DNA from: Gracilibacteraceae bacterium | Lineage (GTDB): Bacteria; Bacillota; Desulfitobacteriia; Desulfitobacteriales; Syntrophobotulaceae | Length of the DNA stretch: 23,144 nucleotides | Direction of reading: 5' to 3' | Assembly (NCBI GenBank): GCA_031255985.1 | Contig: JAIRRL010000198.1 | Location: forward strand, 1 to 23,144 | Shown: positions 286 to 14,732 of the stretch, piece by piece | Layout of the letters: each line of letters opens with the position of its first letter | Position numbering within the stretch: position 1 is the stretch's first letter | Made by a program: the position numbers and the translations under genes | The notes under the pieces: generated by a model | Told to the model about the DNA's origin: nothing | What the model saw: only the letters and a program-made list of their open reading frames with translations | Database searches by the model: none

Positions 286-344
286 CGCCCTTTAGCCGCC
301 GCGCCGGGGCGCGGCGGCTAAAGGGCGCGTTCTATTTTTGCTCC
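286..344. terminator. Long perfect palindrome (about 19-bp arms, CGCCCTTTAGCCGCCGCGCC/GGCGCGGCGGCTAAAGGGCG) followed by a T-run on the + strand. Likely a bidirectional intrinsic terminator between the convergent gene at the window start and the ferredoxin gene.
   Basis: Read directly: a GC-rich stem of about 19 bp with a GGG loop, then TTCTATTTTTG. It lies just 3' of both the + fragment and the minus-strand fdx stop. Confidence 0.5.
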
Positions 345-532
345 AGCGCCTCTTTGGGGCAAAAGTCGATGCATTCGCCGCACATCACGCATTTTTCCCC
401 GTCGATTTCAGGCAGCGCAAATATATCTTTTTGCGTTATCGCCTCCTGCGGGCAAACCGCGATCGCGGGACATTTGTGATCTTGCGGACATTTATCCGGG
501 TTGACCGTCACCCGCCCGGCGGCGGCCGTCAT
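332..532 (-). CDS. 2x[4Fe-4S] ferredoxin
   Basis: 66 aa with two Cys clusters (CPQDHKCPAIAVCP and CVMCGECIDFCP), typical of clostridial-type ferredoxins. Its start overlaps the stop of the upstream trxB-like gene (ATGA). Confidence 0.8.
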   Translation of the reverse strand: MTAAAGRVTVNPDKCPQDHKCPAIAVCPQEAITQKDIFALPEIDGEKCVMCGECIDFCPKEALEQK

Positions 533-1752
533 CGGGTCATCCAGGCTCTGAGGGTCGATTCCAAGGTGTTGTAGCAGTCGGTACTCAGAGTGCCGCAGGC
601 GGTTTCCCGCTTCAAAAGGATAAACGTCCCCGGCGTTTGCACATTGTATTTGCGCGCCAGCATCTGCTTGCGGTACAAATCAATCTTCACCAGCTTGATT
701 TTGCCGGGGTATTCGGCGCTGATCTGTTCCGCCTTGGCGATGGCGTTGATGCTGAATTCGTTCATCGGACTCCAGAAAGCGAGCAATATCTGATCGCTGC
801 CGGCGACCATCGTCTTGTACTCTTCAAATTCTTCAATATAGTGGCCGGCGGCGTGGGCCGCCACCGCTCCGTCCGCCGCCGCCGTCACGACCTGGCGCAG
901 GTATTTTTGCCGGCAGTCGCCGGCGGCGTAGACGCCGGATACCGAAGTCTCCATTTTGTCGCCGGTGATGATGTAGCCGTTTTTGTCGGTCTCGACCAAA
1001 TCCCGGACGACGCCGGTCATCGGCAAGAGACCCACATACATGAAAACACCGTCCACCGCCGTTTCGGTCAGGGCGCCGGTTTTCAGATTTTTGACGACGA
1101 TGGAGCTTACGTCCTCATCGCCTTTGATCTCAGCCAGCGAAGAGTTCCAGACGAATTCCAGCCGGGGATGCTGAAAAGCGATTTCGGCGCTCACTTTATT
1201 GCAGTCCACAATCCCTTCGTCGTGGATCACAATCACGATCACCTTGGCGGCGAACTTGGCGATATAGACCGCCTCTTCCAGCGCCGCGTCGCCGTTGCCG
1301 ACGACGGCGACGACGCAATCAGTGAAGTTTTCCGCGTCGCAGGTGGCGCAGTAGGAAACCCCCATCCCCCTGAATTCCTTCTCGCCGGGGACGCCGAGCA
1401 GACGAGGCTCGGTGCCCAGCGCCAGCACGACGCTCTTAGCCTGGTATTCCGGGCCTTTTTTCAGGCGGATAGTCTTGGGATCGCCCTCCAGGCTCAGTTC
1501 CCGCACTTCGCCCCGCGTGAACTCCACGCCGAATTTTTCGGCGTGAGCGCGAAAATCGGCCATCAGGGCCGGGCCGGAGACATGGGCGTGAAAACCGGGA
1601 TAATTGGCGATTTCTCTGGTCGAGTAAGCGGCGCCGCCAACCGCGCCTTTTTCAATGATCAAAGTCTTCAAACGGGAACGGCCGCCGTAGACGCCGGCCG
1701 CCATTCCGGCGGCGCCGCCGCCTATAATTATGATATCATACAGATTATCCAC
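529..1752 (-). CDS. trxB: Thioredoxin reductase-family flavoprotein with a C-terminally fused thioredoxin-like domain that lacks CxxC
   Basis: FAD motif GGGAAG. Redox-active CATC (CATCDA). The second dinucleotide motif GNGDAALEEA is present, but the NADPH-specific HRRD is replaced by IHDEG. C-terminal ~100 aa align to the thioredoxin fold (ILLAFW-SPMN… versus FWAEWCGPCK) with both active-site Cys absent. GTG start preceded by a GGGGG RBS. Confidence 0.8.
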   Translation of the reverse strand: MDNLYDIIIIGGGAAGMAAGVYGGRSRLKTLIIEKGAVGGAAYSTREIANYPGFHAHVSGPALMADFRAHAEKFGVEFTRGEVRELSLEGDPKTIRLKKGPEYQAKSVVLALGTEPRLLGVPGEKEFRGMGVSYCATCDAENFTDCVVAVVGNGDAALEEAVYIAKFAAKVIVIVIHDEGIVDCNKVSAEIAFQHPRLEFVWNSSLAEIKGDEDVSSIVVKNLKTGALTETAVDGVFMYVGLLPMTGVVRDLVETDKNGYIITGDKMETSVSGVYAAGDCRQKYLRQVVTAAADGAVAAHAAGHYIEEFEEYKTMVAGSDQILLAFWSPMNEFSINAIAKAEQISAEYPGKIKLVKIDLYRKQMLARKYNVQTPGTFILLKRETACGTLSTDCYNTLESTLRAWMTR

Positions 1753-1764
1753 GTTTACCCCCGT

Positions 1765-2085
1765 TCAGCCTATGGCCGCTATTTTTTCGCGCACCTGCTC
1801 CTCCGTCACCGGTCCCGCCAGTTTGCCCTGATAGTCGCCGTCCTTGAAAAACATCAAAGAGGGCACTCCTTTCAGCGGGTAAGTCTTGTAAAGAGACGCC
1901 TGTTCCTCGACGTCGACATAGTAGAAAGCACATTCGGAAGCCAATTCCGGCGCCAGTTCCTCCAGCATCGGCACGACTTCGGCGCAGACGTGACAGTTTT
2001 GGCGGGAAAAAACAATCAGACATTTTCCCCGGCCTTCGATCACGTTCCGCTCGAAAGAATCGGCGTCCAGTTTGGTTATAGCCAT
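1765..2085 (-). CDS. trx: Thioredoxin-family protein with a CHVC active site
   Basis: 106 aa of thioredoxin-fold length, with …FSRQNCHVCAEVVP… at the canonical position and a cis-Pro region (GVPSLMFF). AAAGGAGG RBS 7 nt upstream. Confidence 0.75.
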   Translation of the reverse strand: MAITKLDADSFERNVIEGRGKCLIVFSRQNCHVCAEVVPMLEELAPELASECAFYYVDVEEQASLYKTYPLKGVPSLMFFKDGDYQGKLAGPVTEEQVREKIAAIG

Positions 2086-2148: not shown

Positions 2149-3747
2149 CTATTGCAGAAACTCCAGGTACGGCTGCTTCAGTTCGGCCATGGCGTTGACC
2201 ATAATCTCCACCAGACCGCCGTATTGCAGATTATACTGTTCCGTCGCCTTATAGACTTCGAAAATTTCGCGCAGCGTCCCTTTGCAATTGGAACAGGGAG
2301 CGCAGACATACTTGGGCAGACTTTGATCCGTCATTTCCAGGGTAAAGGCGTTCAAAATCTGGGCGAACTTCATGCGGCCGCTGACCTGGTTGCGAAAAGA
2401 GCTGAAGTTGGGCGAGTTCATGATGGCAAAACCCGAACCGCCGCCGCAACAGTAGTTGTCCACGCCATGGGGCGTCATTTCCCGGAAAGCAGGGCACAGG
2501 GCCTGAAGGATATCCCGCTGGGGTTTTACCACCCCCATCTGCCGCACCAAATTGCAAGGGTCGTGCAAGGTCACCGGGAACGGGTTTTTGGCCGGGTCAA
2601 ACCGAATCTGTTTTTTTGTCACCATCTCCGCCAAAAGAGGGAGGGAGCTTTCCACCGGCAGCCGTTCCTCCGCCCTGATCAAGCGGTCGGAGACAATGAG
2701 GGCCGCCTTATGGGCGTGACCGCATTCCCCCACGACGACGCGGCGGATACCCAAAGCCTTCATAGCTTCGATCTGTTTCAGGGCGATCTTTTTCGCCTGG
2801 ATGTCGTCGTACCAGATTCCGTAGTTTACGCTGTCATAAGTCATGACTTCGCTGGAAAGCGTCCAGTCAAGCCCGGCTTTGTTAAACAAAATAGCGTAAG
2901 CCGCCGGGTTTTCCGGCCAGGCGACGAACTCGCCCGCGTTGTGGTAGAGTAAAATATCGGCGCCTTTTTTGTCCACCGGTATTTTTATCGACTGACCGAT
3001 TCGCTCGCCTGTGTCGTCCTCCAAAAATTCCACCATATCCAAAAACGCCGCTTTGCCGATGCCGGTGGAAGAGCCAACTTTCAGTTGCAGCATACTGCCT
3101 TTGTCGTGCAGCGGCGTCGGGGCCAGGCCCATTTCTTGGCTGAAAATCTTGCGGATCTCCTTGGCAAAAAGGGAATTGTCCAAACCGAGGGGACATGCCT
3201 GAGCGCAGCGCCGGCACAGATTGCAGCGGTAAGCCAGTTCCCCCAGGCGGCCGATGGTTTCCCAGGTGGCGTCGATCTCGGAGGCGGAAAGCGCTCGCCG
3301 GAGGGCGCCCATCCCGCTGAAATGGCTGCGGTAAAGTTTGCGCAATACCTCGGCCCGGAAAATGGGGCGGTGGGGTTCCTGGCCGCCGGAAGCCTGGAAA
3401 ACATGGCAAGCCTCGGAGCAGGTATTACATTTGGCGCAGTATTCAAAGGACAGTTCCAGGGGTTGGCGCACGCCGTTGTTGGCGTCGGAAAAAAGCTTGC
3501 CCAGGCCCTGCAAAAATTTTTCCACGAAAGCTTTCTTTTCTTCGTCGCTCGCCGGCGGCCGCATAGTGTCAATGGCCACGCAGCCGTCCAAACTGGTGCA
3601 GTATTTTTCCCGCCATTCCGGCTTTATCTCGGCGAACTTGGGTTCCGGCCACTGATCATAAGGCGCGGGCAACGGCGGCAGAGAATCGTAGTTTATAAGC
3701 CGCTCCGTCCGGCGGCCTAAATCCTTGGGCGCTATAATCCCGCTCAT
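2149..3747 (-). CDS. HdrD/DsrK-like cytoplasmic iron-sulfur protein (two ferredoxin-type 4Fe-4S motifs plus a CCG domain)
   Basis: CAKCNTCSEACHV and CNLCRRCAQACP are Cx2Cx2Cx3CP motifs. The C-terminal CCG signature is HDPCNL…CPAF…NYCCGGGSG…CAPCSNC. No signal peptide. Start overlaps the upstream membrane-protein stop (ATGA). Confidence 0.75.
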   Translation of the reverse strand: MSGIIAPKDLGRRTERLINYDSLPPLPAPYDQWPEPKFAEIKPEWREKYCTSLDGCVAIDTMRPPASDEEKKAFVEKFLQGLGKLFSDANNGVRQPLELSFEYCAKCNTCSEACHVFQASGGQEPHRPIFRAEVLRKLYRSHFSGMGALRRALSASEIDATWETIGRLGELAYRCNLCRRCAQACPLGLDNSLFAKEIRKIFSQEMGLAPTPLHDKGSMLQLKVGSSTGIGKAAFLDMVEFLEDDTGERIGQSIKIPVDKKGADILLYHNAGEFVAWPENPAAYAILFNKAGLDWTLSSEVMTYDSVNYGIWYDDIQAKKIALKQIEAMKALGIRRVVVGECGHAHKAALIVSDRLIRAEERLPVESSLPLLAEMVTKKQIRFDPAKNPFPVTLHDPCNLVRQMGVVKPQRDILQALCPAFREMTPHGVDNYCCGGGSGFAIMNSPNFSSFRNQVSGRMKFAQILNAFTLEMTDQSLPKYVCAPCSNCKGTLREIFEVYKATEQYNLQYGGLVEIMVNAMAELKQPYLEFLQ

Positions 3748-4619
3748 GTTTTTTCTCCTTCCTGGCCGGCAGCCGGCGCCGGGTTAGCATGCGGCGCGCT
3801 CCAGACCGTCTGCGGTTTGTTTTTCAGCGCCCGGTCCACCTGAGCCGCCATGCCGGAATTTTTCAGATTGGCGGCGTTGTCCCACAAAAAACGGTGGTAA
3901 GCAAAAAACTTGCCGACATAATGGCTCATTTTGCCGATGGGTATATATATGAGCAGACCGTAGACCAAAAGCAGGTGTACAGCCGCCAAAACTCCGGGCG
4001 GCGTGTAGGAGAGAGTCAGAATGTTCCGCATGGCGAGGCGGGCCGAGTCGGAAAACAGGCCGTCGCCGAACCAGAGACATGCGCCGGTAAGAAACGCCGC
4101 AAACAAGAGGATCAGATTCAGATATTCCTGGGGGGTGGTATAGATGCGCAGACGTTTGTCCGCCAAACGGCGCGCGAGTAAAATCAGCGAGCCGGCGCCG
4201 CCCAGCAGAAAGCCCAAAAAACCGCAGAGCGCCGTCAAGACCCGCAGCGCTTCCACATTGCCGGCGCCGGTCAGGGCGGTCAGGATCAGGAGCAGCGTCC
4301 AGACAAACAGACAGTACATGCCGAAGTGAAAAGGCCAGGAAGCCAGCCAAAAACTGCGGCTGCCGTGAAAGAGACGCTTGATGAATACGATTTCCCCCCC
4401 CATTTCCGCCAGTTCCGCCATATGCGAAACTTGCCGGGGTTTAGTCCACCATTCCGGTTCCTCCAGATAGGAACCGCCGTGTTTCCGGCCTTTTTCCGCC
4501 GGCGCCGGATAAAGCTCCATGCGCCCGTGCAGCGGCAGCCGGTTTAACCGGTAGGCCCTGAGGGCCGAGAGAGCAAGGAAAAGCCCCGCCGCGACGTAGG
4601 CCCCTATCCCAAACAGCAT
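3744..4619 (-). CDS. NarI/DsrM/HdrE-like integral-membrane b-type cytochrome (putative quinol-interacting subunit)
   Basis: 291 aa with about 5 hydrophobic helices and conserved-looking His in the helices (LHGRM, FHGSRSF, WPFHFGMY, AAVHLLLVYG). GGGAGG RBS. Immediately upstream of, and overlapping, the HdrD-like gene, which is the classical HdrED/DsrMK arrangement. Family assignment rests on topology and context, not on a search. Confidence 0.55.
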   Translation of the reverse strand: MLFGIGAYVAAGLFLALSALRAYRLNRLPLHGRMELYPAPAEKGRKHGGSYLEEPEWWTKPRQVSHMAELAEMGGEIVFIKRLFHGSRSFWLASWPFHFGMYCLFVWTLLLILTALTGAGNVEALRVLTALCGFLGFLLGGAGSLILLARRLADKRLRIYTTPQEYLNLILLFAAFLTGACLWFGDGLFSDSARLAMRNILTLSYTPPGVLAAVHLLLVYGLLIYIPIGKMSHYVGKFFAYHRFLWDNAANLKNSGMAAQVDRALKNKPQTVWSAPHANPAPAAGQEGEKT

Positions 4620-4669: not shown

Positions 4670-4698
4670 ATTATAAAAAAGACGGGGAGATAAGTAAA
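4670..4698 (-). promoter_or_regulatory. Candidate sigma-70 promoter for the cytochrome b/HdrD-like/trx/trxB/fdx operon
   Basis: On the minus strand, TTTACT, a 17-nt spacer and TATAAT sit in an AT-rich intergenic stretch, with the -10 about 50 nt upstream of the 4619 start. Confidence 0.35.
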
Positions 4699-4822: not shown

Positions 4823-5644
4823 TCAATTATTTCCGTTATGATGCCCGCTTCCGTTATGATGCCCGTTTCTGTTTTGGTTATTCGGCGCGGCGGCGTCCTC
4901 GCCGCCGGCATTGTCGCTGCTGTGACGGCTATTGCCGTGGCTTTGCGTAAGCTCGCGGATTTCGCCAATGGAATGATCGCGGCAGGAGTCCACGCTCGCG
5001 GTCGGGTCTACCTTTTGCAGTTCAAGAATAGCGAGGTATTTGGCGGGGCTGACGTCCTGTCCGCGCGCCTCGTTTCGCGCGTCCGCGCTAATAGGGAAGA
5101 CCTCCGTTCGCGGTTCGATATGATGTTTCGCCGCCGCCGCCGCCAGATTGGATTCCACGTCCGCGAGCATTGCGTTTTCCCTGTTCGTGTCGCCCGTCTG
5201 CACCGTGACGGCCAGTACGGCTTCGTCGCGCAGATAGCCTCTCGCGACGGCCGCGTCCACGATGAGCCGCATCGCCTCCCGGTAGCTTTTGTGTGTCAAA
5301 CCGGTCTCCGTGATAATGCCCGCGCCTTCGCCGTTATAGGCGCTCGCTTCGATCACGCGGCCGAATCGGTTAACGGCAAGTTCCACGGACGGGTTAATAT
5401 CGATATCAAGGAAAGCCGTCGCGCTGAAATAAGCGTAATGGGAGGACAGGCCCAGAAACAGCAGTAACGCGCAGGCCGCGGAGGCGAACGCGAACCTCAT
5501 TTTGTTGCGGCGCGCGAAAAACGGTTTCCCGCTTTCCCGTTTCCGCGATTCGTTCAAAATATATTCCAACGCTCCGGCCTTGAGACTGTCGTCCGCGCGA
5601 ATGGCGTCAAACGCATCCTTTATCTTATTCATCCGCGAAATCAC
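4823..5644 (-). CDS. Putative anti-sigma factor: N-terminal cytoplasmic segment, one TM helix, extracytoplasmic domain, His-rich C-terminal tail
   Basis: It overlaps the 3' end of the ECF sigma gene by 20 nt. There is a single hydrophobic helix (FAFASAACALLLFLGL). The tail NGHHNGSGHHNGNN is encoded by an 18-bp tandem duplication. Family not determinable without a search. Confidence 0.5.
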   Translation of the reverse strand: MISRMNKIKDAFDAIRADDSLKAGALEYILNESRKRESGKPFFARRNKMRFAFASAACALLLFLGLSSHYAYFSATAFLDIDINPSVELAVNRFGRVIEASAYNGEGAGIITETGLTHKSYREAMRLIVDAAVARGYLRDEAVLAVTVQTGDTNRENAMLADVESNLAAAAAKHHIEPRTEVFPISADARNEARGQDVSPAKYLAILELQKVDPTASVDSCRDHSIGEIRELTQSHGNSRHSSDNAGGEDAAAPNNQNRNGHHNGSGHHNGNN

Positions 5645-6113
5645 CTCCCAGCGCGTCCCTTAATCTCGCTTTCGCCCGCGCAAGCCACGTGTATACCGTG
5701 TTTTCGCTCCTGCCGAGCAGTTCGGCGATTTCCGGGGCGGAATAGCCCTCGTAGTAGAAAAGGTAGACGGCGTCCCTGTACTTCTCCGGCAGCGCCAGCA
5801 CGGCGTCCAGGACATCCCGGTTCTCGACCGGCAGATCAAAGAACGGCTCCGCCTCCAATTCCGTAAGCGACGACACCCTGCGCCGGAAAAAACTCTTCGC
5901 TGCATCCTTGCAATTGTTGACGGCGACGCGAATCAGCCACGCCTTTTCGTGTTCGCGGCTTGCAAAAGGCTCGTCGCGAAGCGCGTATTTCAGGAAGGTT
6001 TCCTGAAATACGTCCTCGACGTCGCCGTGATTTTTCAGGTGGAGAAAGCAGACGCGCCGCGCCGTGTCGGCGTAAAGCTCCACGGCGAGACGTATTTCGG
6101 CTTCACTTTTCAT
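5625..6113 (-). CDS. ECF-type RNA polymerase sigma-70 family factor
   Basis: Region 2 motif (…DVFQETFLKYA…EKAWLIRVAVNNCKD) and region 4 HTH (YRDAVYLFYYEGYSAPEIAELLGRSENTVYTWLARAKARL). Confidence 0.85.
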   Translation of the reverse strand: MKSEAEIRLAVELYADTARRVCFLHLKNHGDVEDVFQETFLKYALRDEPFASREHEKAWLIRVAVNNCKDAAKSFFRRRVSSLTELEAEPFFDLPVENRDVLDAVLALPEKYRDAVYLFYYEGYSAPEIAELLGRSENTVYTWLARAKARLRDALGGDFADE

Positions 6114-10984: not shown

Positions 10985-11243
10985 AAGTTCCTCATTTCTT
11001 CATTTCTTCGCAACGAGCCGCGGCGCATTGTCCTCCGGCAGGGATCCGGGGCAGAGACCGCGGCGGTTCTGGCGCAGCCAAACCGTCAGAGTGGATTTTA
11101 CGCTTTGAAAAAGCGGGAGGAAACGTCACCGGCAGTCGCTGCGAGCCCGCAGTTCCAGCGCCAAAATGATTATACAGCAAACAAACAACGAGAACAACTG
11201 AAGAATTATCTTCGGGCGTCGTCTTCGGCGTCCCGGCGTCCTC

Positions 11244-11272
11244 TTGACAAGCGGGGTGAAAATATCTACAAT
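11244..11272 (+). promoter_or_regulatory. Perfect consensus sigma-70 promoter TTGACA-17-TACAAT ending 6 nt before the ATG at 11279 (leaderless or near-leaderless transcript)
   Basis: Read directly: cTTGACAagcggggtgaaaatatcTACAATgagtcgATGaat. There is no Shine-Dalgarno between the -10 and the ATG. Confidence 0.55.
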
Positions 11273-11278
11273 GAGTCG

Positions 11279-13474
11279 ATGAATAAAAATAAAATCGCCG
11301 TTTACGGCAAAGGCGGCATAGGCAAATCCACAGTCAGCGCCAATTTAGCCGCGGCGCTGGCGGAAACCGGCGTCCGGGTTCTGCAGATCGGCTGCGACCC
11401 CAAGCGCGATTCTACGCGCCTGCTCACGGGCGGGCGGCGGATCACGACGGTTTTGGATTATACGCGGGTTACGGGCCATGCGGAGCGCCGGATAGAGGAC
11501 GTGCTGTTCAGGGGGCGCCTGGGCGTGGGCTGTGTGGAAGCGGGCGGCCCGAAACCGGGAGTGGGCTGCGCGGGGCGGGGGATTATCTCCGCTTTTGAGC
11601 TGCTTGAACGCTTCGGGGCCGAAGCCGATTACGACGCCGTTATTTACGACGTGCTGGGCGACGTGGTCTGCGGCGGTTTTGCCGTGCCCATCAGGCGGGA
11701 ATACGCGAACATGATCTATATCGTCACTTCCGGCGAATTCATGGCTCTGTACGCGGCTAACAACATCCTGAGCGGAATCCGCAATTATGACGGCGATAAG
11801 CGGCGCGTGGCCGGCCTTATTTTCAACCGGCGCGGCTTGGAAGGGGAGGACGGGCGCGTCGCCCGTTTTGCCGCGGCCGTCCGGCTGCCGGTTTGCGCCG
11901 CCATACCCAGGAGCGGCGCTTTTGCCCGCTGCGAGGCGGAAAACAAAACGCTGCTTGAGGCTGGCTATGCACCGGCTGGGATTTTCAGGAAGCTGGCACG
12001 GGCGATTAACGCCGGCGTCAGCCTGTATGAAGCTCTGCCCCTGACGGAGGAAGAACTGGAAGGCGCCGTTCTGGGCCTGAGCGCCCCGCCCACCGCCGCC
12101 GGGATCCTCGCCGCTGACGCGGCCGAAACGGACAAGACCCGTTCGCCGGGGCGGAAGGACGATCCCGGCGGCGAAATGCTGTCTCTGAACATATTAAACG
12201 ACGATCCGCTCCACGGCTGCGCTTTCAACGGCGCCGTCACGATGGGCGTCCACCTGACGGACGCGGTGGTTCTCGCCCACTCGCCCCGGAGCTGCGCCTA
12301 TATTTCCTATCAGACGATCAGTTCTTCCGGCCGGCGCGGCCTGTTTGAGCGCGGACTCCTTTTGCCAAACTCCGTCTCGCCCAATCTGGAGTGCAGCTTC
12401 ATGAACGAAAACGATATGATTTTTGGCGGCTTGGACAAACTGGAGGCGAAAGTTCTGGAGCTGAAAAAGAAAAAGCCCAAGGCGATCATCGTCGTCAGCT
12501 CCTGCCCCTCCGGCATCATCGGGGACGACGTCAGCCGCGTTCTCCGCCACGCCGACGCCGGTACGCCTGTCATCGCCGTCAAAACCGACGGCAATCTCAC
12601 CGGCGATTATTTGCAGGGTATGCTGAACCTCTATACCGCTCTCGCCCGCGGCGTCATAGAGCGGAACGTCGAAGCGATCCCTGACGCGGTCAATATCGTC
12701 TTTGAAAAAGTGGTCGCCAAAAACACCGGCGCGAATTTCAGCGTTATCGAAGGTTTTTTGCGCCGTCTCGGCCTGAAAGTGAACTGCCGCTTCCTATGCG
12801 AAACGACTTTTGACCGGCTGCGGAATTTCCTGGCCGCCCCCCTCAATCTGCTGGCAAGTAATGACTATACAGGGAGATTGCTCCAAAAATTCTTTACGGC
12901 TGAATATGGCTGCGTATTTTTGCAGGACGGCTTCCCCGTAGGTTTTGACGAGACGAAAACCTGGCTGTTTCGGGTCGCGGATTTTTTTGGCCGGCGCGCG
13001 GCGGCGGCGGATTTGCTCCGGGAACACGAAGCCGGCTACCGGCGGCGGATGGAAGCTTTGCGGCCGGCTTTGCAAGGGCGCAAGCTGATGATCGTCACCT
13101 ACAACCACAATGTCGATTGGATATTGAAAGCCGCTATGGACGCGGGGATGGAAATCGTGAAACTCGGCATACTGAAATTTTCCCAGGACGCCGGTTTCGT
13201 GACCAAACTGGGCACAGGGCTGAACGTCGAGGAAAATTACGACGGGAACAAGCGGGAGGCCGACATGCGGCAATACGGCCCGGACGTGTTGCTGACCAAC
13301 TACAATTCCACGGACGAACCGGCGTCCGTCCTGACGGACACGATTCCCATGTGTCCCGACGTCGGTTTTTACTCCGGCCTGAACATGGTCAGCCGCTGGG
13401 CGGCGCTGCTGGAAAATAATTTGCGCGGGGAGTGGATGGACGATAAACGGCTCTTTGACAAATATTACGCCTGA
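11279..13474 (+). CDS. Nitrogenase-like fusion protein: NifH/BchL-type Fe-protein ATPase domain joined through a Pro/Ala-rich linker to a NifD/NifE-type component-1 domain
   Basis: The N-terminus MNKNKIAVYGKGGIGKST is a P-loop, with switch I/II regions present. The [4Fe-4S] ligand Cys are conserved (CVEAGGPKPGVGCAGRGI; DVLGDVVCGGFAVP). A linker of about 35 aa (PPTAAGILAADAAETDKTRSPGRKDDPGG) follows. The C-terminal domain carries NifD/E-type cluster motifs (HGCAFNGA; SPRSCAYIS; VSSCPSGIIGDD). The ORF track extends 58 codons upstream to a TTG at 11105, but that extension lies upstream of the consensus promoter and has no RBS, so the ATG at 11279 is preferred. Confidence 0.8.
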   Translation: MNKNKIAVYGKGGIGKSTVSANLAAALAETGVRVLQIGCDPKRDSTRLLTGGRRITTVLDYTRVTGHAERRIEDVLFRGRLGVGCVEAGGPKPGVGCAGRGIISAFELLERFGAEADYDAVIYDVLGDVVCGGFAVPIRREYANMIYIVTSGEFMALYAANNILSGIRNYDGDKRRVAGLIFNRRGLEGEDGRVARFAAAVRLPVCAAIPRSGAFARCEAENKTLLEAGYAPAGIFRKLARAINAGVSLYEALPLTEEELEGAVLGLSAPPTAAGILAADAAETDKTRSPGRKDDPGGEMLSLNILNDDPLHGCAFNGAVTMGVHLTDAVVLAHSPRSCAYISYQTISSSGRRGLFERGLLLPNSVSPNLECSFMNENDMIFGGLDKLEAKVLELKKKKPKAIIVVSSCPSGIIGDDVSRVLRHADAGTPVIAVKTDGNLTGDYLQGMLNLYTALARGVIERNVEAIPDAVNIVFEKVVAKNTGANFSVIEGFLRRLGLKVNCRFLCETTFDRLRNFLAAPLNLLASNDYTGRLLQKFFTAEYGCVFLQDGFPVGFDETKTWLFRVADFFGRRAAAADLLREHEAGYRRRMEALRPALQGRKLMIVTYNHNVDWILKAAMDAGMEIVKLGILKFSQDAGFVTKLGTGLNVEENYDGNKREADMRQYGPDVLLTNYNSTDEPASVLTDTIPMCPDVGFYSGLNMVSRWAALLENNLRGEWMDDKRLFDKYYA

Positions 13475-14732
13475 CAGCCTTTCGGGGATCATTTTCGCTC
13501 TGGAGGGCGTCGCGCGGGCGACGGTGCTGCTCAACGGCCCCACCGGCTGCAAATTTTACCACAGCGCCGTCTCCGACAGTCAGACGCTGGGGCGGGGCGG
13601 GCTGGATCCGCTGCTCTTTCCTGATTTATGGCATTTCGGTCAGCCCCGCGTACCCTGCACATACCTGGGCGGCCGCGATTATGTATACGGCAGCCGGGAA
13701 AAACTGGCAGCGGCGCTGCCCTGCCTGAGCCGCCAGGCGGATACCGATCTGCTCTGCGTCGTAAATTCGCCCGGCGCCGCGCTCATCGGCGACGACTTGC
13801 GCGCCGCCGCCGAAGCCGCCCTGCCGGACGCCCCCTGCGTCACGATAGAAACGCCGGGCTTTTCGGAAAATATTTTCGCCGGTTACGACAGCGCCGCCCA
13901 GGCGCTTATCCGCCAGCTCGACTGCCCAGCCCAAGCCCTGCGGCCCGCGACGGTCAATCTGCTGGGTCTGTCCGTATTCCAGCGGAACTACCGGGGCGAT
14001 CTGGCCGAGATGAAGCGGCTGCTGGCCCTTTGCGGCGTGGAGATGATCTGCGCTCTTTTCGCCGGAAGCGGTCTGAGCGAGATTCGGGCCATGCCGGCGG
14101 CGGCCCTGAACATCGTACTTCAGCCTGAATACGGTCTGGCGGCGGCCCGTCTGCTGGAAGAAAAATACGGAACGCCCTATATCGTCCGCGACGGCCCTCC
14201 TGTCGGCTTTGCGGCGACGGAGGAATTGATGAGCGCCGTCTGCGCCAGGCTCGGAGGCGACGCCGCCGCTTTCCGGGAAGAAAGCGAGCGGGCCAGGGCG
14301 CGCGCCTACAGTCATATTGCCCGTGTTCACGCTCTCAGCGGCTTGCCCAAGGGAGCGAAATTCGGTCTGGAAGGAACATATTCCGAGCTTTACGCTTACA
14401 CCAAATTTCTCACGGGCTATTTCGGCATGATCCCGGAAAGCGTCTCGGTTTTTTGCCCGGAGCGCAGCGAATACAAGGCCAAGTACACCGCCCTCCTTGA
14501 CGGGCTGGGGGCCGCCGCCGTGTTGAACCGCGGCTTGTTTGAGGCGGAAGCGGAGCTGATTTTCGCCAGCGGCGGTTCCATCGCGGCTCTGAAATTGCGC
14601 AAACGCGAATTCGTCGGCGTGGAAATCGCGCTGCCGACCTTGGGCTATATCGACGTGCTGCCCAAAGCGAATTACGGCGTCAACGGCGCTCTGCGCCTGA
14701 CGGAACAGGTGTTGAACGGCCTGCTGTTCTAG
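13455..14732 (+). CDS. Nitrogenase component-1 type oxidoreductase (NifK/NifN/BchB-like partner subunit)
   Basis: …LLNGPTGCKFYHSAVSDSQ… and …LLCVVNSPGAALIGDDL… match the GC…/…xIGDD motifs of NifK/N-like subunits. TTG start overlaps the upstream gene by 20 nt, suggesting translational coupling. Confidence 0.7.
   Translation: MTNITPDSLSGIIFALEGVARATVLLNGPTGCKFYHSAVSDSQTLGRGGLDPLLFPDLWHFGQPRVPCTYLGGRDYVYGSREKLAAALPCLSRQADTDLLCVVNSPGAALIGDDLRAAAEAALPDAPCVTIETPGFSENIFAGYDSAAQALIRQLDCPAQALRPATVNLLGLSVFQRNYRGDLAEMKRLLALCGVEMICALFAGSGLSEIRAMPAAALNIVLQPEYGLAAARLLEEKYGTPYIVRDGPPVGFAATEELMSAVCARLGGDAAAFREESERARARAYSHIARVHALSGLPKGAKFGLEGTYSELYAYTKFLTGYFGMIPESVSVFCPERSEYKAKYTALLDGLGAAAVLNRGLFEAEAELIFASGGSIAALKLRKREFVGVEIALPTLGYIDVLPKANYGVNGALRLTEQVLNGLLF

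What the first reader, a model, noticed from the sequence alone, without database searches (positions are those of the whole stretch)
529..1752. Thioredoxin reductase with a fused, cysteine-less thioredoxin-fold domain and a non-NADPH dinucleotide motif, next to a ferredoxin gene
- The C-terminal ~100 aa align to thioredoxin, but the WCGPC active site reads W-SPMN (no Cys). A separate C-x6-C pair (ACGTLSTDC) lies further downstream.
- The NADPH-specificity motif HRRD is replaced by IHDEG, where acidic residues typically indicate NADH rather than NADPH use.
- A 2x[4Fe-4S] ferredoxin gene is translationally coupled directly downstream.
- Together these suggest either an NADH- or ferredoxin-linked TrxR whose fused Trx-like domain acts as a docking or regulatory module rather than a redox partner.
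Basis: partly seen in the sequence, partly recalled or inferred. Interest (0 to 1): 0.55.

Follow-up and report, generated by a model that had tools for sequence, protein, structure and literature searches.

The report
Thioredoxin reductase fused to inactive thioredoxin
This gene encodes a normal-looking thioredoxin reductase that has lost its NADPH-specific residues (so it probably uses NADH) and carries a permanently cysteine-free thioredoxin domain; it belongs to a widespread but unstudied enzyme subfamily of anaerobic Firmicutes, and here it sits in a sulfite-respiration (DsrMK) operon.

Summary
Window 529-1752 (-) encodes a 407-aa low-Mr thioredoxin reductase. It has FAD motifs, CATC and GxGxxA, and a C-terminal Trx fold (AF2 pLDDT 92; TM 0.73-0.82 to real thioredoxins) with no active-site Cys.

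- **Nucleotide site:** the three Arg that clamp NADPH's 2'-phosphate are Asp178, Glu179 and Asp183.
- **Not an error:** all 120 closest homologues (47-89% identity) keep these features, and none has CxxC in the fused domain.
  - The active-site register is WCGPC = MNEFS.
  - The Cx6C pair occurs only in the five nearest relatives.
  - The ferredoxin has 7 Cys, so it is not a canonical 2x[4Fe-4S] protein. It is adjacent in only 1 of 80 related genome loci.
a free atypical thioredoxin (CHVC) lies directly upstream, and the operon starts with DsrM/DsrK-like genes.
- **Context elsewhere:** a 79% relative places the same pair between DsrOP and DsrAB-DsrC. Other relatives sit in glycine-reductase operons or beside cytoplasmic arylsulfotransferase or alkaline-phosphatase-family enzymes.

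Best reading: a probably NADH-linked TrxR dedicated to an adjacent atypical Trx, with a redox-dead Trx domain acting as a structural or docking module. I found no publication describing it. It is a new variant of a known kind, of moderate interest.

The parts
529..1752 (-). TrxR-Trx' gene, 407 aa: a low-Mr thioredoxin reductase fused to a Cys-less thioredoxin domain
   Evidence: ORF. Pfam and NCBIfam. PDB TrxR matches at 3e-84. AF2 pLDDT 91.7 and pTM 0.83. Foldseek TM 0.88-0.90 (normalised by the target) to FO-state TrxRs.
1705..1722 (-). FAD-binding GxGxxG motif (GGGAAG, residues 11-16)
   Evidence: Translation. G11, G13 and G16 are invariant. The JGI gene call P0001 starts 16 aa later and would remove this motif.
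1339..1350 (-). Redox-active disulfide CATC (C135, C138)
   Evidence: Both Cys are invariant in 75 aligned homologues.
1282..1299 (-). Dinucleotide pyrophosphate motif GNGDAA (GxGxxA, residues 152-157)
   Evidence: G152, G154, D155 and A157 are invariant.
1204..1224 (-). HDEGIVD (residues 177-183) in place of HRRDxxR. All three 2'-phosphate-binding Arg are replaced by Asp178, Glu179 and Asp183.
   Evidence: Residue-by-residue alignments to 5uwy, 7aaw and 4gcm. H177, G180 and D183 are invariant and D178 is at least 90% conserved. The motif is present in 120 of 120 homologues with minor variation at position 179.
532..804 (-). C-terminal Trx' domain (residues 317-407), a thioredoxin fold without redox cysteines
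   Evidence: Pfam PF00085 at 9.6e-7. phmmer to PDB thioredoxins at 1.8e-5. AF2 of the domain at pLDDT 92.5. Foldseek TM 0.73-0.82.
751..777 (-). Degenerate active-site stretch FWSPMNEFS, equivalent to FWAPWCGPC of thioredoxin (C32 to N331, C35 to S334)
   Evidence: Alignments, column counts, translation.
574..597 (-). Cx6C pair (C386, C393) in the last strand and helix of Trx'. It is lineage-specific and probably not functional for the family.
   Evidence: Present only in the query, P0001-P0003 and partly in P0004 and P0005.
332..532 (-). 66-aa ferredoxin-like protein with 7 Cys (C-x5-C-x5-CP plus CxxCxxCxxxCP). Its start overlaps the TrxR' stop as ATGA.
   Evidence: Pfam Fer4, Fer4_10 and LdpA_Fe-S-bd. 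Cys positions are identical in the L005 orthologue. It is adjacent only in the window and in L005/L009.
1765..2085 (-). Free thioredoxin, 106 aa, with atypical active site CHVC (C31, C34; nt 1984-1995). It is the likely substrate of TrxR'.
   Evidence: Pfam PF00085 at 5.3e-16. A Trx gene is adjacent to TrxR' in 63 of 80 genome loci, and CHVC is the commonest motif in upstream copies.
2149..3747 (-). DsrK-like (HdrD-type) iron-sulfur protein with a CCG domain, 532 aa
   Evidence: NCBIfam DsrK NF045796 at 7.5e-105 and 351 bits, below the cut-off of 400. Pfam Fer4_8 plus CCG.
3744..4619 (-). DsrM-like (NarI-type) membrane cytochrome b, 291 aa, the first gene of the operon
   Evidence: Pfam Nitrate_red_gam at 9.4e-8. 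NCBIfam DsrM at 6e-10, well below cut-off.
4670..4698 (-). Promoter-like site TTTACT-17-TATAAT upstream of the DsrM-like gene
   Evidence: Consensus scan, 10 of 12 matches; sequence. This is a consensus match only.
286..327 (.). 19-bp GC-rich hairpin immediately after the ferredoxin stop codon, the likely operon end
   Evidence: sequence.

Best explanation
The gene encodes a functional homodimeric low-Mr thioredoxin reductase of a distinct, conserved subfamily found mainly in Clostridia (Peptococcaceae, Desulfitobacteriaceae, Syntrophomonadaceae, Gracilibacteraceae).

**Mechanism, step by step**
1. *Inferred from motifs.* A pyridine dinucleotide binds the retained GxGxxA Rossmann site. The three Arg that hold NADPH's 2'-phosphate in canonical enzymes are replaced by Asp178, Glu179 and Asp183. 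NADPH is therefore disfavoured and NADH is the likely donor.
2. *Inferred by homology.* Electrons pass from FAD to the C135-C138 disulfide. The NAD domain then rotates to expose the dithiol.
3. *Inferred from gene adjacency.* The dithiol reduces the free, atypical thioredoxin (CHVC) encoded immediately upstream, not the fused domain.
4. *Shown for the lack of cysteines, inferred for the role.* The fused Trx' domain is a former thioredoxin, probably of the CExC type, that lost its cysteines. It has no redox role. It is joined to the last TrxR helix by a 4-residue linker and most likely acts as a rigid structural or partner-docking module.
5. *Inferred from context.* The Trx/TrxR' pair is a portable reductant-supply module attached to specialised enzymes. 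In this operon and its nearest relatives the clients belong to the Dsr machinery (DsrK-like protein or DsrC-type thiols). Elsewhere they are glycine-type reductases, cytoplasmic arylsulfotransferases and alkaline-phosphatase-family enzymes.

The downstream 7-Cys ferredoxin is a lineage-specific accessory. It more likely serves the DsrMK-like iron-sulfur proteins than acts as the defining donor of TrxR'.
For: **TrxR identity.**
- PDB TrxR matches reach 3e-84.
- CATC, GxGxxG, GVYAAGD and GxGxxA are invariant.
- The AF2 model superposes on FO-state TrxRs at 2.3-2.7 A.

**Charge reversal at the 2'-phosphate site.** Seen in the alignments and conserved in 120 of 120 homologues.

**Trx' domain.**
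- It has a Trx fold.
- None of 120 homologues has CxxC. Sixteen keep only the second Cys and one keeps CEES.
- Glu332 is the majority residue (75 of 120) at the position of the Glu in CEPC-type Trx.
- The domain is present in 119 of 119 homologues but evolves faster, with 43% pairwise identity against 62-71% for the TrxR domains.

**Partner and context.**
- A free Trx is adjacent in 63 of 80 genome loci.
- Grd operons account for 17 loci, the AP family for 23, ASST for 13, and DsrMK, DsrOP or DsrAB-DsrC for the nearest relatives.
- The ASST and AP proteins lack signal peptides.

**Precedent.** Thioredoxin captured DsrC in D. vulgaris (preprint 10.1101/2024.09.27.615472).
Against: - No biochemical data exist for any member, so NADH use is inferred from residues only.
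- Some TrxR relatives that lost the HRR motif use no pyridine nucleotide at all (DvTRi in PMC5627308), although those also lost GxGxxA.
- NCBIfam TIGR01292 scores 334.3, just under its cut-off of 343.45.
- The canonical Arg of the G[R/K]G Trx-contact motif is not conserved at its usual position.
- The position of Trx' relative to the active site could not be inspected, so its docking role is a guess.
- The operon-specific link to Dsr rests on only three contigs (window, L005/L009, L006/L011).
Confidence: 0.6

Rival explanations
1. Ferredoxin-dependent enzyme (FFTR-like). The co-translated ferredoxin delivers electrons to the flavin and the pyridine-nucleotide site is vestigial.
For: - The ferredoxin start overlaps the TrxR' stop codon (ATGA), and this arrangement is kept in the 89% relative L005.
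- The HRR motif is absent.
- Surveys class TrxBs lacking HRRxxxR as 'non-NTR, probably FFTR' (PMC10880999).
Against: - A ferredoxin is adjacent in 1 of 80 related genome loci, while the HDEG motif is invariant.
- GxGxxA and the following Glu are conserved, unlike the degenerate motif reported for the non-NAD(P)H enzyme DvTRi.
- Similarity to the FFTR structures 6gna and 6gnd is 2e-30 to 5e-29, against 3e-84 for NADPH-type TrxRs.
- The replacements are specifically acidic at all three Arg positions, which looks like a selected specificity switch rather than decay.
Confidence: 0.12
2. The Trx' domain is an intramolecular pseudo-substrate or regulatory lid. It occupies the thioredoxin docking site on the NAD domain, possibly of the partner subunit as in NTRC, and so gates access or biases the FO/FR equilibrium.
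For: - Trx' keeps the thioredoxin surface elements used for TrxR contact: the FWxP stretch and the cis-Pro loop (P375 in 108 of 120).
- Its position at the C-terminus matches NTRC. It is my recollection that the NTRC Trx domain reacts with the other subunit.
- A pTM of 0.83 suggests a defined domain arrangement.
Against: - The linker is only about 4 residues after the last TrxR helix. This limits reach compared with what I recall as the long NTRC linker.
- Trx' evolves faster than the rest of the protein, which is unexpected for a precisely docking pseudo-substrate.
- No coordinates were available to check contacts.
Confidence: 0.2
3. In this operon the Trx/TrxR' pair is an integral part of a DsrMK-linked electron path. 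One version is NADH to TrxR' to Trx to the DsrK-like protein to DsrM to menaquinone. The other is NADH-driven reduction of a DsrC-type trisulfide. Either way it is more than a generic reductant supply.
For: - Gene order is dsrM-dsrK-trx-trxR'-fdx, with overlapping or closely spaced genes, one promoter-like site and one terminal hairpin.
- The same order occurs in L005/L009.
- In L006/L011 the pair lies between DsrO/DsrP and DsrA/DsrB/DsrC, all above NCBIfam cut-offs.
- Thioredoxin trapped DsrC in D. vulgaris.
Against: - This is seen in only one lineage (Gracilibacteraceae MAGs).
- The same Trx/TrxR' type serves unrelated enzymes elsewhere.
- No DsrAB or DsrC gene lies in the 23-kb window.
- The DsrK-like and DsrM-like proteins score below the NCBIfam cut-offs.
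Confidence: 0.15
4. Artefact: a frameshifted, mis-assembled or decaying NTRC-like gene whose Trx cysteines were lost by error or pseudogenisation.
For: None beyond the absence of Cys.
Against: - The reading frame is intact.
- 120 homologues from independent assemblies and isolate genomes share every feature.
- The AF2 model is of high confidence.
Confidence: 0.01

Closest known systems
Canonical low-Mr NADPH-thioredoxin reductase (TrxB/NTR; e.g. PDB 5uwy, 7aaw, 4gcm, 1tde)
   Same: Same two-domain flavoprotein fold, with 40-45% identity. It shares GxGxxG, CATC, GxGxxA and GxxAAGD, and a thioredoxin gene lies adjacent.
   Different: HRRDxxR is replaced by HDEGxxD with a 2-residue insertion. The protein carries about 90 extra C-terminal residues forming a Trx fold. 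It scores just below the TIGR01292 cut-off.
NTRC and the Mycobacterium leprae TrxR-Trx fusion (TrxR with a C-terminal active thioredoxin)
   Same: Same domain order, TrxR then a Trx fold (Pfam architecture; NTRC reductase modules 7p9d and 9vv4 match).
   Different: From general knowledge, the NTRC Trx domain has WCGPC, is the redox partner, is joined by a long linker, and the enzyme uses NADPH. Here the domain has no Cys, the linker is about 4 residues, and a separate Trx gene is present.
Ferredoxin-dependent flavin TrxR (FFTR, PDB 6gna) and the cyanobacterial DTR/DDOR (5j60, 5n0j)
   Same: These are TrxR-family enzymes of anaerobes or cyanobacteria that lack the HRR motif. In this window a ferredoxin gene is adjacent.
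   Different: As I recall Buey et al., and as cited, those enzymes also lack GxGxxA. They have no Trx domain and are much less similar (2e-30 for 6gna; Foldseek rmsd 13 A for 5j60).
NADH-using TrxR-like enzymes: AhpF, Clostridium pasteurianum Cp34, D. vulgaris TR3, and the TIGR03143 'AhpF homolog' family
   Same: They set a precedent for NADH preference in this fold. DvTR3 prefers NADH (PMC5627308). AhpF and Cp34 are from my own knowledge. The best NCBIfam hit is TIGR03143 at 345 bits over its TrxR half.
   Different: The TIGR03143 cut-off of 687 is not met, and its C-terminal half is not matched. TR3 and dcTR1 have His in place of the Ser of VSYC, whereas this family keeps VSYCATCD. No AhpC gene was seen in the window.
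Redox-inactive thioredoxin domains used as protein-binding modules (e.g. CnoX/YbbN chaperedoxin)
   Same: A Trx fold that has lost the nucleophilic Cys and acts by binding proteins. YbbN/CnoX chains appear among weak sequence matches (3qou and 9wcw at about 0.006).
   Different: This is an analogy only. CnoX is a stand-alone chaperone with a TPR domain and is not fused to a reductase.

Membership tests
Low-Mr thioredoxin reductase (L-TrxR) | N-terminal FAD-binding GxGxxG and C-terminal GxxAAGD motifs | tested here: met
   GGGAAG at residues 11-16 and GVYAAGD at 273-279. Both are invariant in the family.
Low-Mr thioredoxin reductase (L-TrxR) | Redox-active CxxC (CATC) in the pyridine-nucleotide domain | tested here: met
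   C135 and C138 lie within SYCATCDA, which is invariant.
Low-Mr thioredoxin reductase (L-TrxR) | Two-domain TrxR fold | tested here: met
   Foldseek TM 0.88-0.90 (normalised by the target) and rmsd 2.3-2.7 A to 4gcm, 7aaw and 3f8r.
Low-Mr thioredoxin reductase (L-TrxR) | Score above the curated equivalog threshold (TIGR01292) | tested here: not met
   334.3 bits against a cut-off of 343.45. This is a narrow miss.
NADPH-dependent TrxR (NTR) | GGGxxAxE pyrophosphate motif | tested here: met
   GNGDAALEE at residues 152-160. The GxGxxA core is kept, and the second Gly is Asn.
NADPH-dependent TrxR (NTR) | HRRDxxR(A) 2'-phosphate-binding motif | tested here: not met
   HDEGIVD(C). All three Arg are replaced by acidic residues.
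NADPH-dependent TrxR (NTR) | NADPH-dependent reduction of thioredoxin | not testable with these tools
   This needs an enzyme assay.
NTRC-type TrxR-Trx fusion | TrxR module followed by a thioredoxin-fold domain in one polypeptide | tested here: met
   Pfam architecture, AF2 models and Foldseek of the isolated domain.
NTRC-type TrxR-Trx fusion | Fused domain carries a redox-active WCGPC/CxxC | tested here: not met
   MNEFS lies at that position, and 0 of 120 homologues have CxxC.
Ferredoxin-dependent flavin TrxR (FFTR) | Both NAD(P)H motifs (GxGxxA and HRRxxxR) are absent | tested here: not met
   HRR is absent but GxGxxA is conserved. The criterion is as stated in PMC10880999.
Ferredoxin-dependent flavin TrxR (FFTR) | Closest sequence relatives are FFTRs | tested here: not met
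   6gna at 2.1e-30 against NADPH-type TrxRs at 3e-84.
Ferredoxin-dependent flavin TrxR (FFTR) | Reduced ferredoxin is the electron donor | not testable with these tools
   Only genetic linkage could be examined. A ferredoxin is adjacent in 1 of 80 related genome loci.
AhpF / TIGR03143 AhpF-homolog | Full-length match above cut-off, including the double Trx-fold region | tested here: not met
   345.1 bits against 687.65, and only profile positions 1-316 of 555 are matched. The C-terminal domain alone hits thioredoxin models, not TIGR03143.
Thioredoxin fold (for the C-terminal domain) | b-a-b-a-b-b-a topology with a conserved cis-Pro loop, and sequence similarity to PF00085 | tested here: met
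   DSSP. PF00085 at 9.6e-7, above its cut-off. TM 0.73-0.82 to thioredoxins. Pro375 is present in 108 of 120 homologues.
2x[4Fe-4S] bacterial ferredoxin (for the downstream gene) | Two CxxCxxCxxxCP motifs (8 Cys) | tested here: not met
   One canonical motif plus C-x5-C-x5-CP, giving 7 Cys in total. The L005 orthologue has the same pattern.

The most novel reading that the evidence does not exclude
The CHVC-thioredoxin/TrxR' pair may be the NADH-driven reductant of a previously unrecognised branch of dissimilatory sulfur metabolism in anaerobic Firmicutes. It could regenerate DsrC or feed the DsrK-like subunit in Gracilibacteraceae. More broadly, it could release sulfite from imported organosulfates by PAPS-reductase-like chemistry: a sulfuryl group passes from a cytoplasmic arylsulfotransferase or AP-family enzyme to the Trx thiol and is then resolved to sulfite plus Trx disulfide. 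That would supply sulfite to DsrAB without ATP-dependent sulfate activation. In this reading the Cys-less Trx' domain is the adaptor that docks the reductase onto these clients.
Probability: 0.12. Interest if true: 0.8.

Novelty: new variant of a known kind. Interest (0 to 1): 0.45.

Why it matters
Thioredoxin reductases of anaerobes are usually sorted into NADPH enzymes and 'non-NTR, probably ferredoxin-dependent' enzymes on the basis of the HRR motif (PMC10880999). This subfamily would be mis-sorted by that rule.

- It keeps the dinucleotide site but reverses the charge of the 2'-phosphate pocket.
- It always carries a dead thioredoxin domain.
- It is widespread. The genome scan confirmed 569 TrxR relatives in all. 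The 80 loci kept all match into the C-terminal domain, and Desulfitobacterium sp. Sab5 has three such loci.
- It is the reductase attached to glycine-type reductase operons in Syntrophomonas and several Peptococcaceae, and to cytoplasmic arylsulfotransferases used in biocatalysis.

Knowing its donor and the role of Trx' would clarify how these organisms balance NADH against thiol-dependent reductions. Its placement inside dsr clusters gives a concrete, testable handle on the proposed thioredoxin-DsrC connection.

Tried and rejected
1. **phmmer of the Trx' domain against 1.8 billion representatives.** It gave only 26 weak hits, mostly fragments of the same fusion proteins. It told nothing about family size or stand-alone relatives.
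2. **Profile of 29 Trx' domains against the 5.8-billion-protein collection.** It gave 8 hits, again fragments or ordinary thioredoxins. No Cys-retaining fused relative and no free Cys-less homologue was found, but this search is not exhaustive.
3. **AFDB Foldseek search.** The library was unavailable.
5. **BLASTP of Trx' against the adjacent CHVC Trx.** There was no detectable similarity, so a recent duplication-and-fusion of the neighbouring gene is rejected.
6. **Literature searches.** The searches covered the fusion, the CHVC motif, an ASST-thioredoxin link and TrxR within dsr clusters. No description of this subfamily was found. The library covers open-access papers only, so absence is not proof.
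7. **TR3/dcTR1 classes of Valette et al. (PMC5627308).** Membership was considered and rejected, because those classes have His instead of Ser in VSYC.
8. **The Cx6C pair as an alternative redox centre.** Rejected because it is not conserved.
Full report
**What is in the sequence**

The finding's coordinates match an ORF on the minus strand, 529-1752, of 407 aa. It has a GTG start preceded by a GGGGGT Shine-Dalgarno-like sequence. The JGI gene call for the identical contig (P0001, 391 aa) starts 16 residues later and would delete the FAD-binding GGGAAG motif. The longer ORF is therefore the correct one.

Pfam finds Pyr_redox_2 across residues 5-295 (1.2e-41). It also finds a thioredoxin domain at 310-389 (1.6e-5, 25.3 bits, above the 23.5 gathering score). 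The E-value improves to 9.6e-7 when the last 107 residues are scanned alone.

Against the PDB, the first 310 residues match bacterial NADPH-thioredoxin reductases at up to 3e-84 and about 42-45% identity. The defining TrxR elements are all present (coordinates checked):
- GGGAAG at residues 11-16
- the redox disulfide CATC at 135-138
- GNGDAALEE at 152-160
- GVYAAGD at 273-279

**The nucleotide site**

In the residue-by-residue alignments, the canonical '...KVTV--VHRRDQLRAQK' lies opposite '...KVIVIVIHDEGIVDCNK'. His177 is kept. All three arginines that bind the 2'-phosphate of NADPH in canonical enzymes are replaced by acidic residues. The canonical motif VxxxHRRDxxRA is quoted in PMC5627308. 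The replacements are Asp178, Glu179 and Asp183.

The pyrophosphate-binding GxGxxA motif and the following Glu are conserved. By established Rossmann-fold logic, which I draw from my own knowledge, acidic residues after strand beta-2 repel the 2'-phosphate and favour NAD(H). The non-pyridine-nucleotide enzyme DvTRi, by contrast, has a degenerate GxGxxA motif. I therefore regard NADH as the most likely donor. This is an inference from residues, not a measurement.

**The fused domain**

AlphaFold2 with a 75-sequence alignment gives a confident model (pLDDT 91.7, pTM 0.83). In it the last TrxR helix (288-316) runs, after a 4-residue turn, into a b-a-b-a-b-b-a domain at 321-406. Modelled alone, the domain has pLDDT 92.5. 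It superposes on genuine thioredoxins with TM 0.73-0.82 and rmsd 1.5-2.7 A; examples are T. thermophilus 2cvk, E. coli Trx and D. vulgaris Trx1 6zom. phmmer also finds real thioredoxins, with 7xao at 1.8e-5 and 2yj7 at 4.6e-5.

Those ungapped alignments fix the register. FWSPMNEFS corresponds to FWAPWCGPC, so Cys32 becomes Asn331 and Cys35 becomes Ser334. No solved structure covers TrxR together with such a domain.

**Conservation**

A search of 5.8 billion proteins returned 120 listed homologues of 391-442 aa and 52-100% identity. Findings across this set:
- Every one keeps CATC (two with a one-residue variant inside the CxxC), a GxGD[AS]A motif (GNGD in 119) and an H-[DEG]-x-G-x-x-D-[CA]-N motif. 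The second position is Asp in all but two, and the third is Glu in about 85%.
- Trp327, Pro329 and Asp358 are invariant in the 120-sequence set, and Glu342 in 119 of 120. The cis-Pro position holds Pro in 108 of 120.
- None of the 120 has a CxxC in the fused domain. 103 have no Cys at either position, 16 keep only the second (xxxC), and one reads CEES.
- Position 332 is Glu in 75 of 120. This matches the Glu of the CEPC-type thioredoxins encoded next to many family members. It suggests that the domain descends from a CExC thioredoxin.
- The domain is present in 119 of 119 homologues but is less constrained. Mean pairwise identity is 43%, against 62-71% for the three TrxR segments.

The features are real and selected.

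**Who has it**

A scan of one genome per species found 569 relatives. The best 80 loci are mainly from Desulfosporosinus, Desulfitobacterium (three loci in strain Sab5), Pelotomaculum, Desulfotomaculum, Syntrophomonas, Syntrophaceticus, Neomoorella, Ca. Formimonas and Gracilibacter. A few MAGs come from Desulfobacterota, Coriobacteriia and Cloacimonadota. The nearest are two Gracilibacteraceae MAGs at 89% and 79% identity, so the window probably derives from that family of Clostridia.

**Genomic context**

In the window the gene is the fourth of five co-oriented, tightly spaced genes:
1. DsrM-like cytochrome b, 3744-4619
2. DsrK-like CCG iron-sulfur protein, 2149-3747 (NCBIfam DsrK 351 bits, below the cut-off of 400)
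3. a 106-aa thioredoxin with active site CHVC, 1765-2085
4. TrxR-Trx', 529-1752
5. a 66-aa ferredoxin, 332-532, whose ATG overlaps the TrxR' stop codon (ATGA)

A promoter-like site lies upstream of the first gene, and a 19-bp GC hairpin follows the last.

The ferredoxin has seven cysteines (C-x5-C-x5-CP plus CxxCxxCxxxCP). The orthologue in the 89% relative has the same pattern. It is therefore not a canonical 8-Cys 2x[4Fe-4S] protein.

I compared neighbourhoods by tblastn across the 80 genome loci:

| Feature near TrxR' | Loci (of 80) |
|---|---|
| Thioredoxin gene adjacent | 63 (39 upstream, 24 downstream) |
| ~670-aa alkaline-phosphatase-superfamily (PF01663) protein within 3 kb | 23 |
| Glycine/sarcosine/betaine-reductase genes (GrdA, C, D, E) | 17 |
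| Arylsulfotransferase (PF05935) | 13 |
| DsrMK | 2 |
| Ferredoxin directly adjacent | 1 |

- The upstream thioredoxins mostly have CHVC active sites. The downstream ones include the CEPC type.
- The grd loci are almost always arranged TrxR'-Trx-GrdA.
- The one locus with an adjacent ferredoxin is the window's own 89% relative.
- The arylsulfotransferase and AP-family proteins have no signal peptides.
- Their loci commonly also carry a LysR regulator and an MFS or other anion transporter.

In the 79-80% relative (L006/L011) the Trx-TrxR' pair lies between DsrO and DsrP on one side and DsrA, DsrB, a ferredoxin and DsrC on the other. All five Dsr proteins score above their NCBIfam cut-offs, and two DsrMK-like pairs lie upstream.

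The fusion protein is thus a recurrent, portable partner of an atypical thioredoxin, attached to different specialised enzymes. In the window's lineage it is embedded in dissimilatory sulfite-reduction genes. The ferredoxin is a lineage-specific addition.

**Interpretation**

*What is shown.*
- The gene is an intact member of a conserved TrxR subfamily.
- The fused domain is a thioredoxin fold that cannot perform dithiol chemistry.
- The 2'-phosphate pocket is charge-reversed while the dinucleotide motif is kept.
- A free thioredoxin is the usual neighbour.

*What is inferred.*
- NADH is the donor.
- The free CHVC thioredoxin is the substrate.
- Trx' is a rigid structural or docking module rather than a flexible redox arm. 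This rests on the short linker, universal retention and faster evolution.
- The operon's clients are the DsrK-like protein or DsrC-type thiols.

A preprint reporting that D. vulgaris thioredoxin traps DsrC gives independent plausibility to a Trx-Dsr connection (10.1101/2024.09.27.615472).

*Rivals.*
- An FFTR-like, ferredoxin-driven enzyme is disfavoured. GxGxxA is conserved, similarity to FFTR is much weaker (2e-30 against 3e-84), and ferredoxin linkage is rare.
- An autoinhibitory pseudo-substrate role for Trx' cannot be excluded without coordinates.
- An artefact is excluded.

**Comparison with known families**

- **Canonical TrxB/NTR.** The protein works like a low-Mr TrxR and passes most membership tests. 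It fails the HRR motif and narrowly misses the TIGR01292 cut-off (334.3 against 343.45). It should not be filed as an NADPH-dependent TrxB.
- **NTRC.** It shares NTRC's domain order but fails the defining active CxxC.
- **FFTR.** It fails the FFTR criteria.
- **TIGR03143.** It matches only the reductase half of the TIGR03143 'AhpF homolog' model (345 against a cut-off of 688).
- **TR3/dcTR1.** It differs from the TR3/dcTR1 classes of Valette et al. by keeping VSYCATCD.

I found no paper describing the subfamily. One recent survey would class it as 'non-NTR, probably FFTR'.

**Verdict**

The gene represents an uncharacterised but widespread variant of a well-known enzyme. It is worth a biochemical look but is not a new kind of system. 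The Dsr and organosulfate context is the most intriguing lead, and it remains speculative.

Noticed in passing
window 11105-14732 (+): This is a nitrogenase-like pair. One 789-aa protein fuses a NifH/CfbC-like ATPase (residues 63-319, 299 bits to CfbC) to a NifD/NifE-like Oxidored_nitro domain (residues 370-770). A 425-aa NifK/BchB-like subunit follows. No NCBIfam model reaches its cut-off, so this is an uncharacterised group of nitrogenase-like reductases with fused H and D subunits.
   Followed up: partly
L003 3611-5629; L004 1834-3888; L037, L052, L055, L059, L062 and others (23 of 80 loci): A conserved, cytoplasmic alkaline-phosphatase-superfamily protein of about 670 aa is encoded next to the CHVC Trx and TrxR'. 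It matches PF01663, has weak sulfatase-like C-terminal similarity and no signal peptide. LysR and transporter genes often accompany it. Its function is unknown, and a thioredoxin-dependent reaction for this superfamily would be unusual.
   Followed up: partly
L033 5685-7568; L050 5640-7634; L001 7624-9063; L089 2914-4350 and others (13 of 80 loci): Arylsulfotransferases (PF05935) without signal peptides are encoded beside the same Trx/TrxR' pair, and an MFS transporter is next to them in the Coriobacteriia MAG (L001/L010) and L089 contigs. As I recall, the E. coli enzyme is periplasmic and depends on DsbL/DsbI, so a cytoplasmic ASST linked to a reducing thioredoxin system is unexpected.
   Followed up: partly
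L011 327-12161 (Gracilibacteraceae MAG Gx481_bin137); L006: This is a complete dsr cluster in the order DsrMK, a second DsrMK-like pair, DsrO, DsrP, Trx, TrxR', DsrA, DsrB, ferredoxin, DsrC. A thioredoxin system is thus inserted in the middle of a dissimilatory sulfite reductase locus in a family not known for sulfite respiration.
   Followed up: partly
window 1201-1203 (Cys184): A Cys directly after the charge-reversed motif (VDCN[KR]) is conserved in at least 90% of homologues, where canonical enzymes have Ala (HRRDxxRA). A minority of homologues have Ala there. Its role is unknown.
   Followed up: no
window 4823-6113 (-): An ECF-type sigma factor and an RsgI-like anti-sigma factor lie immediately upstream of the operon in the same orientation. 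The 89% relative L005 lacks this arrangement, so it is probably not a conserved regulatory link.
   Followed up: partly
window 332-532 (-): The small ferredoxin has an unusual first motif, C-x5-C-x5-CP, with conserved Asp and His between the first two Cys (CPQDHKCP). One cluster may therefore have a non-Cys ligand or be a [3Fe-4S] cluster.
   Followed up: partly
window 1705-1752 (-): The public (JGI) gene call for this contig starts at Met17 and removes the GxGxxG FAD motif. The GTG start at 1752 fits the N-termini of the homologues.
   Followed up: yes
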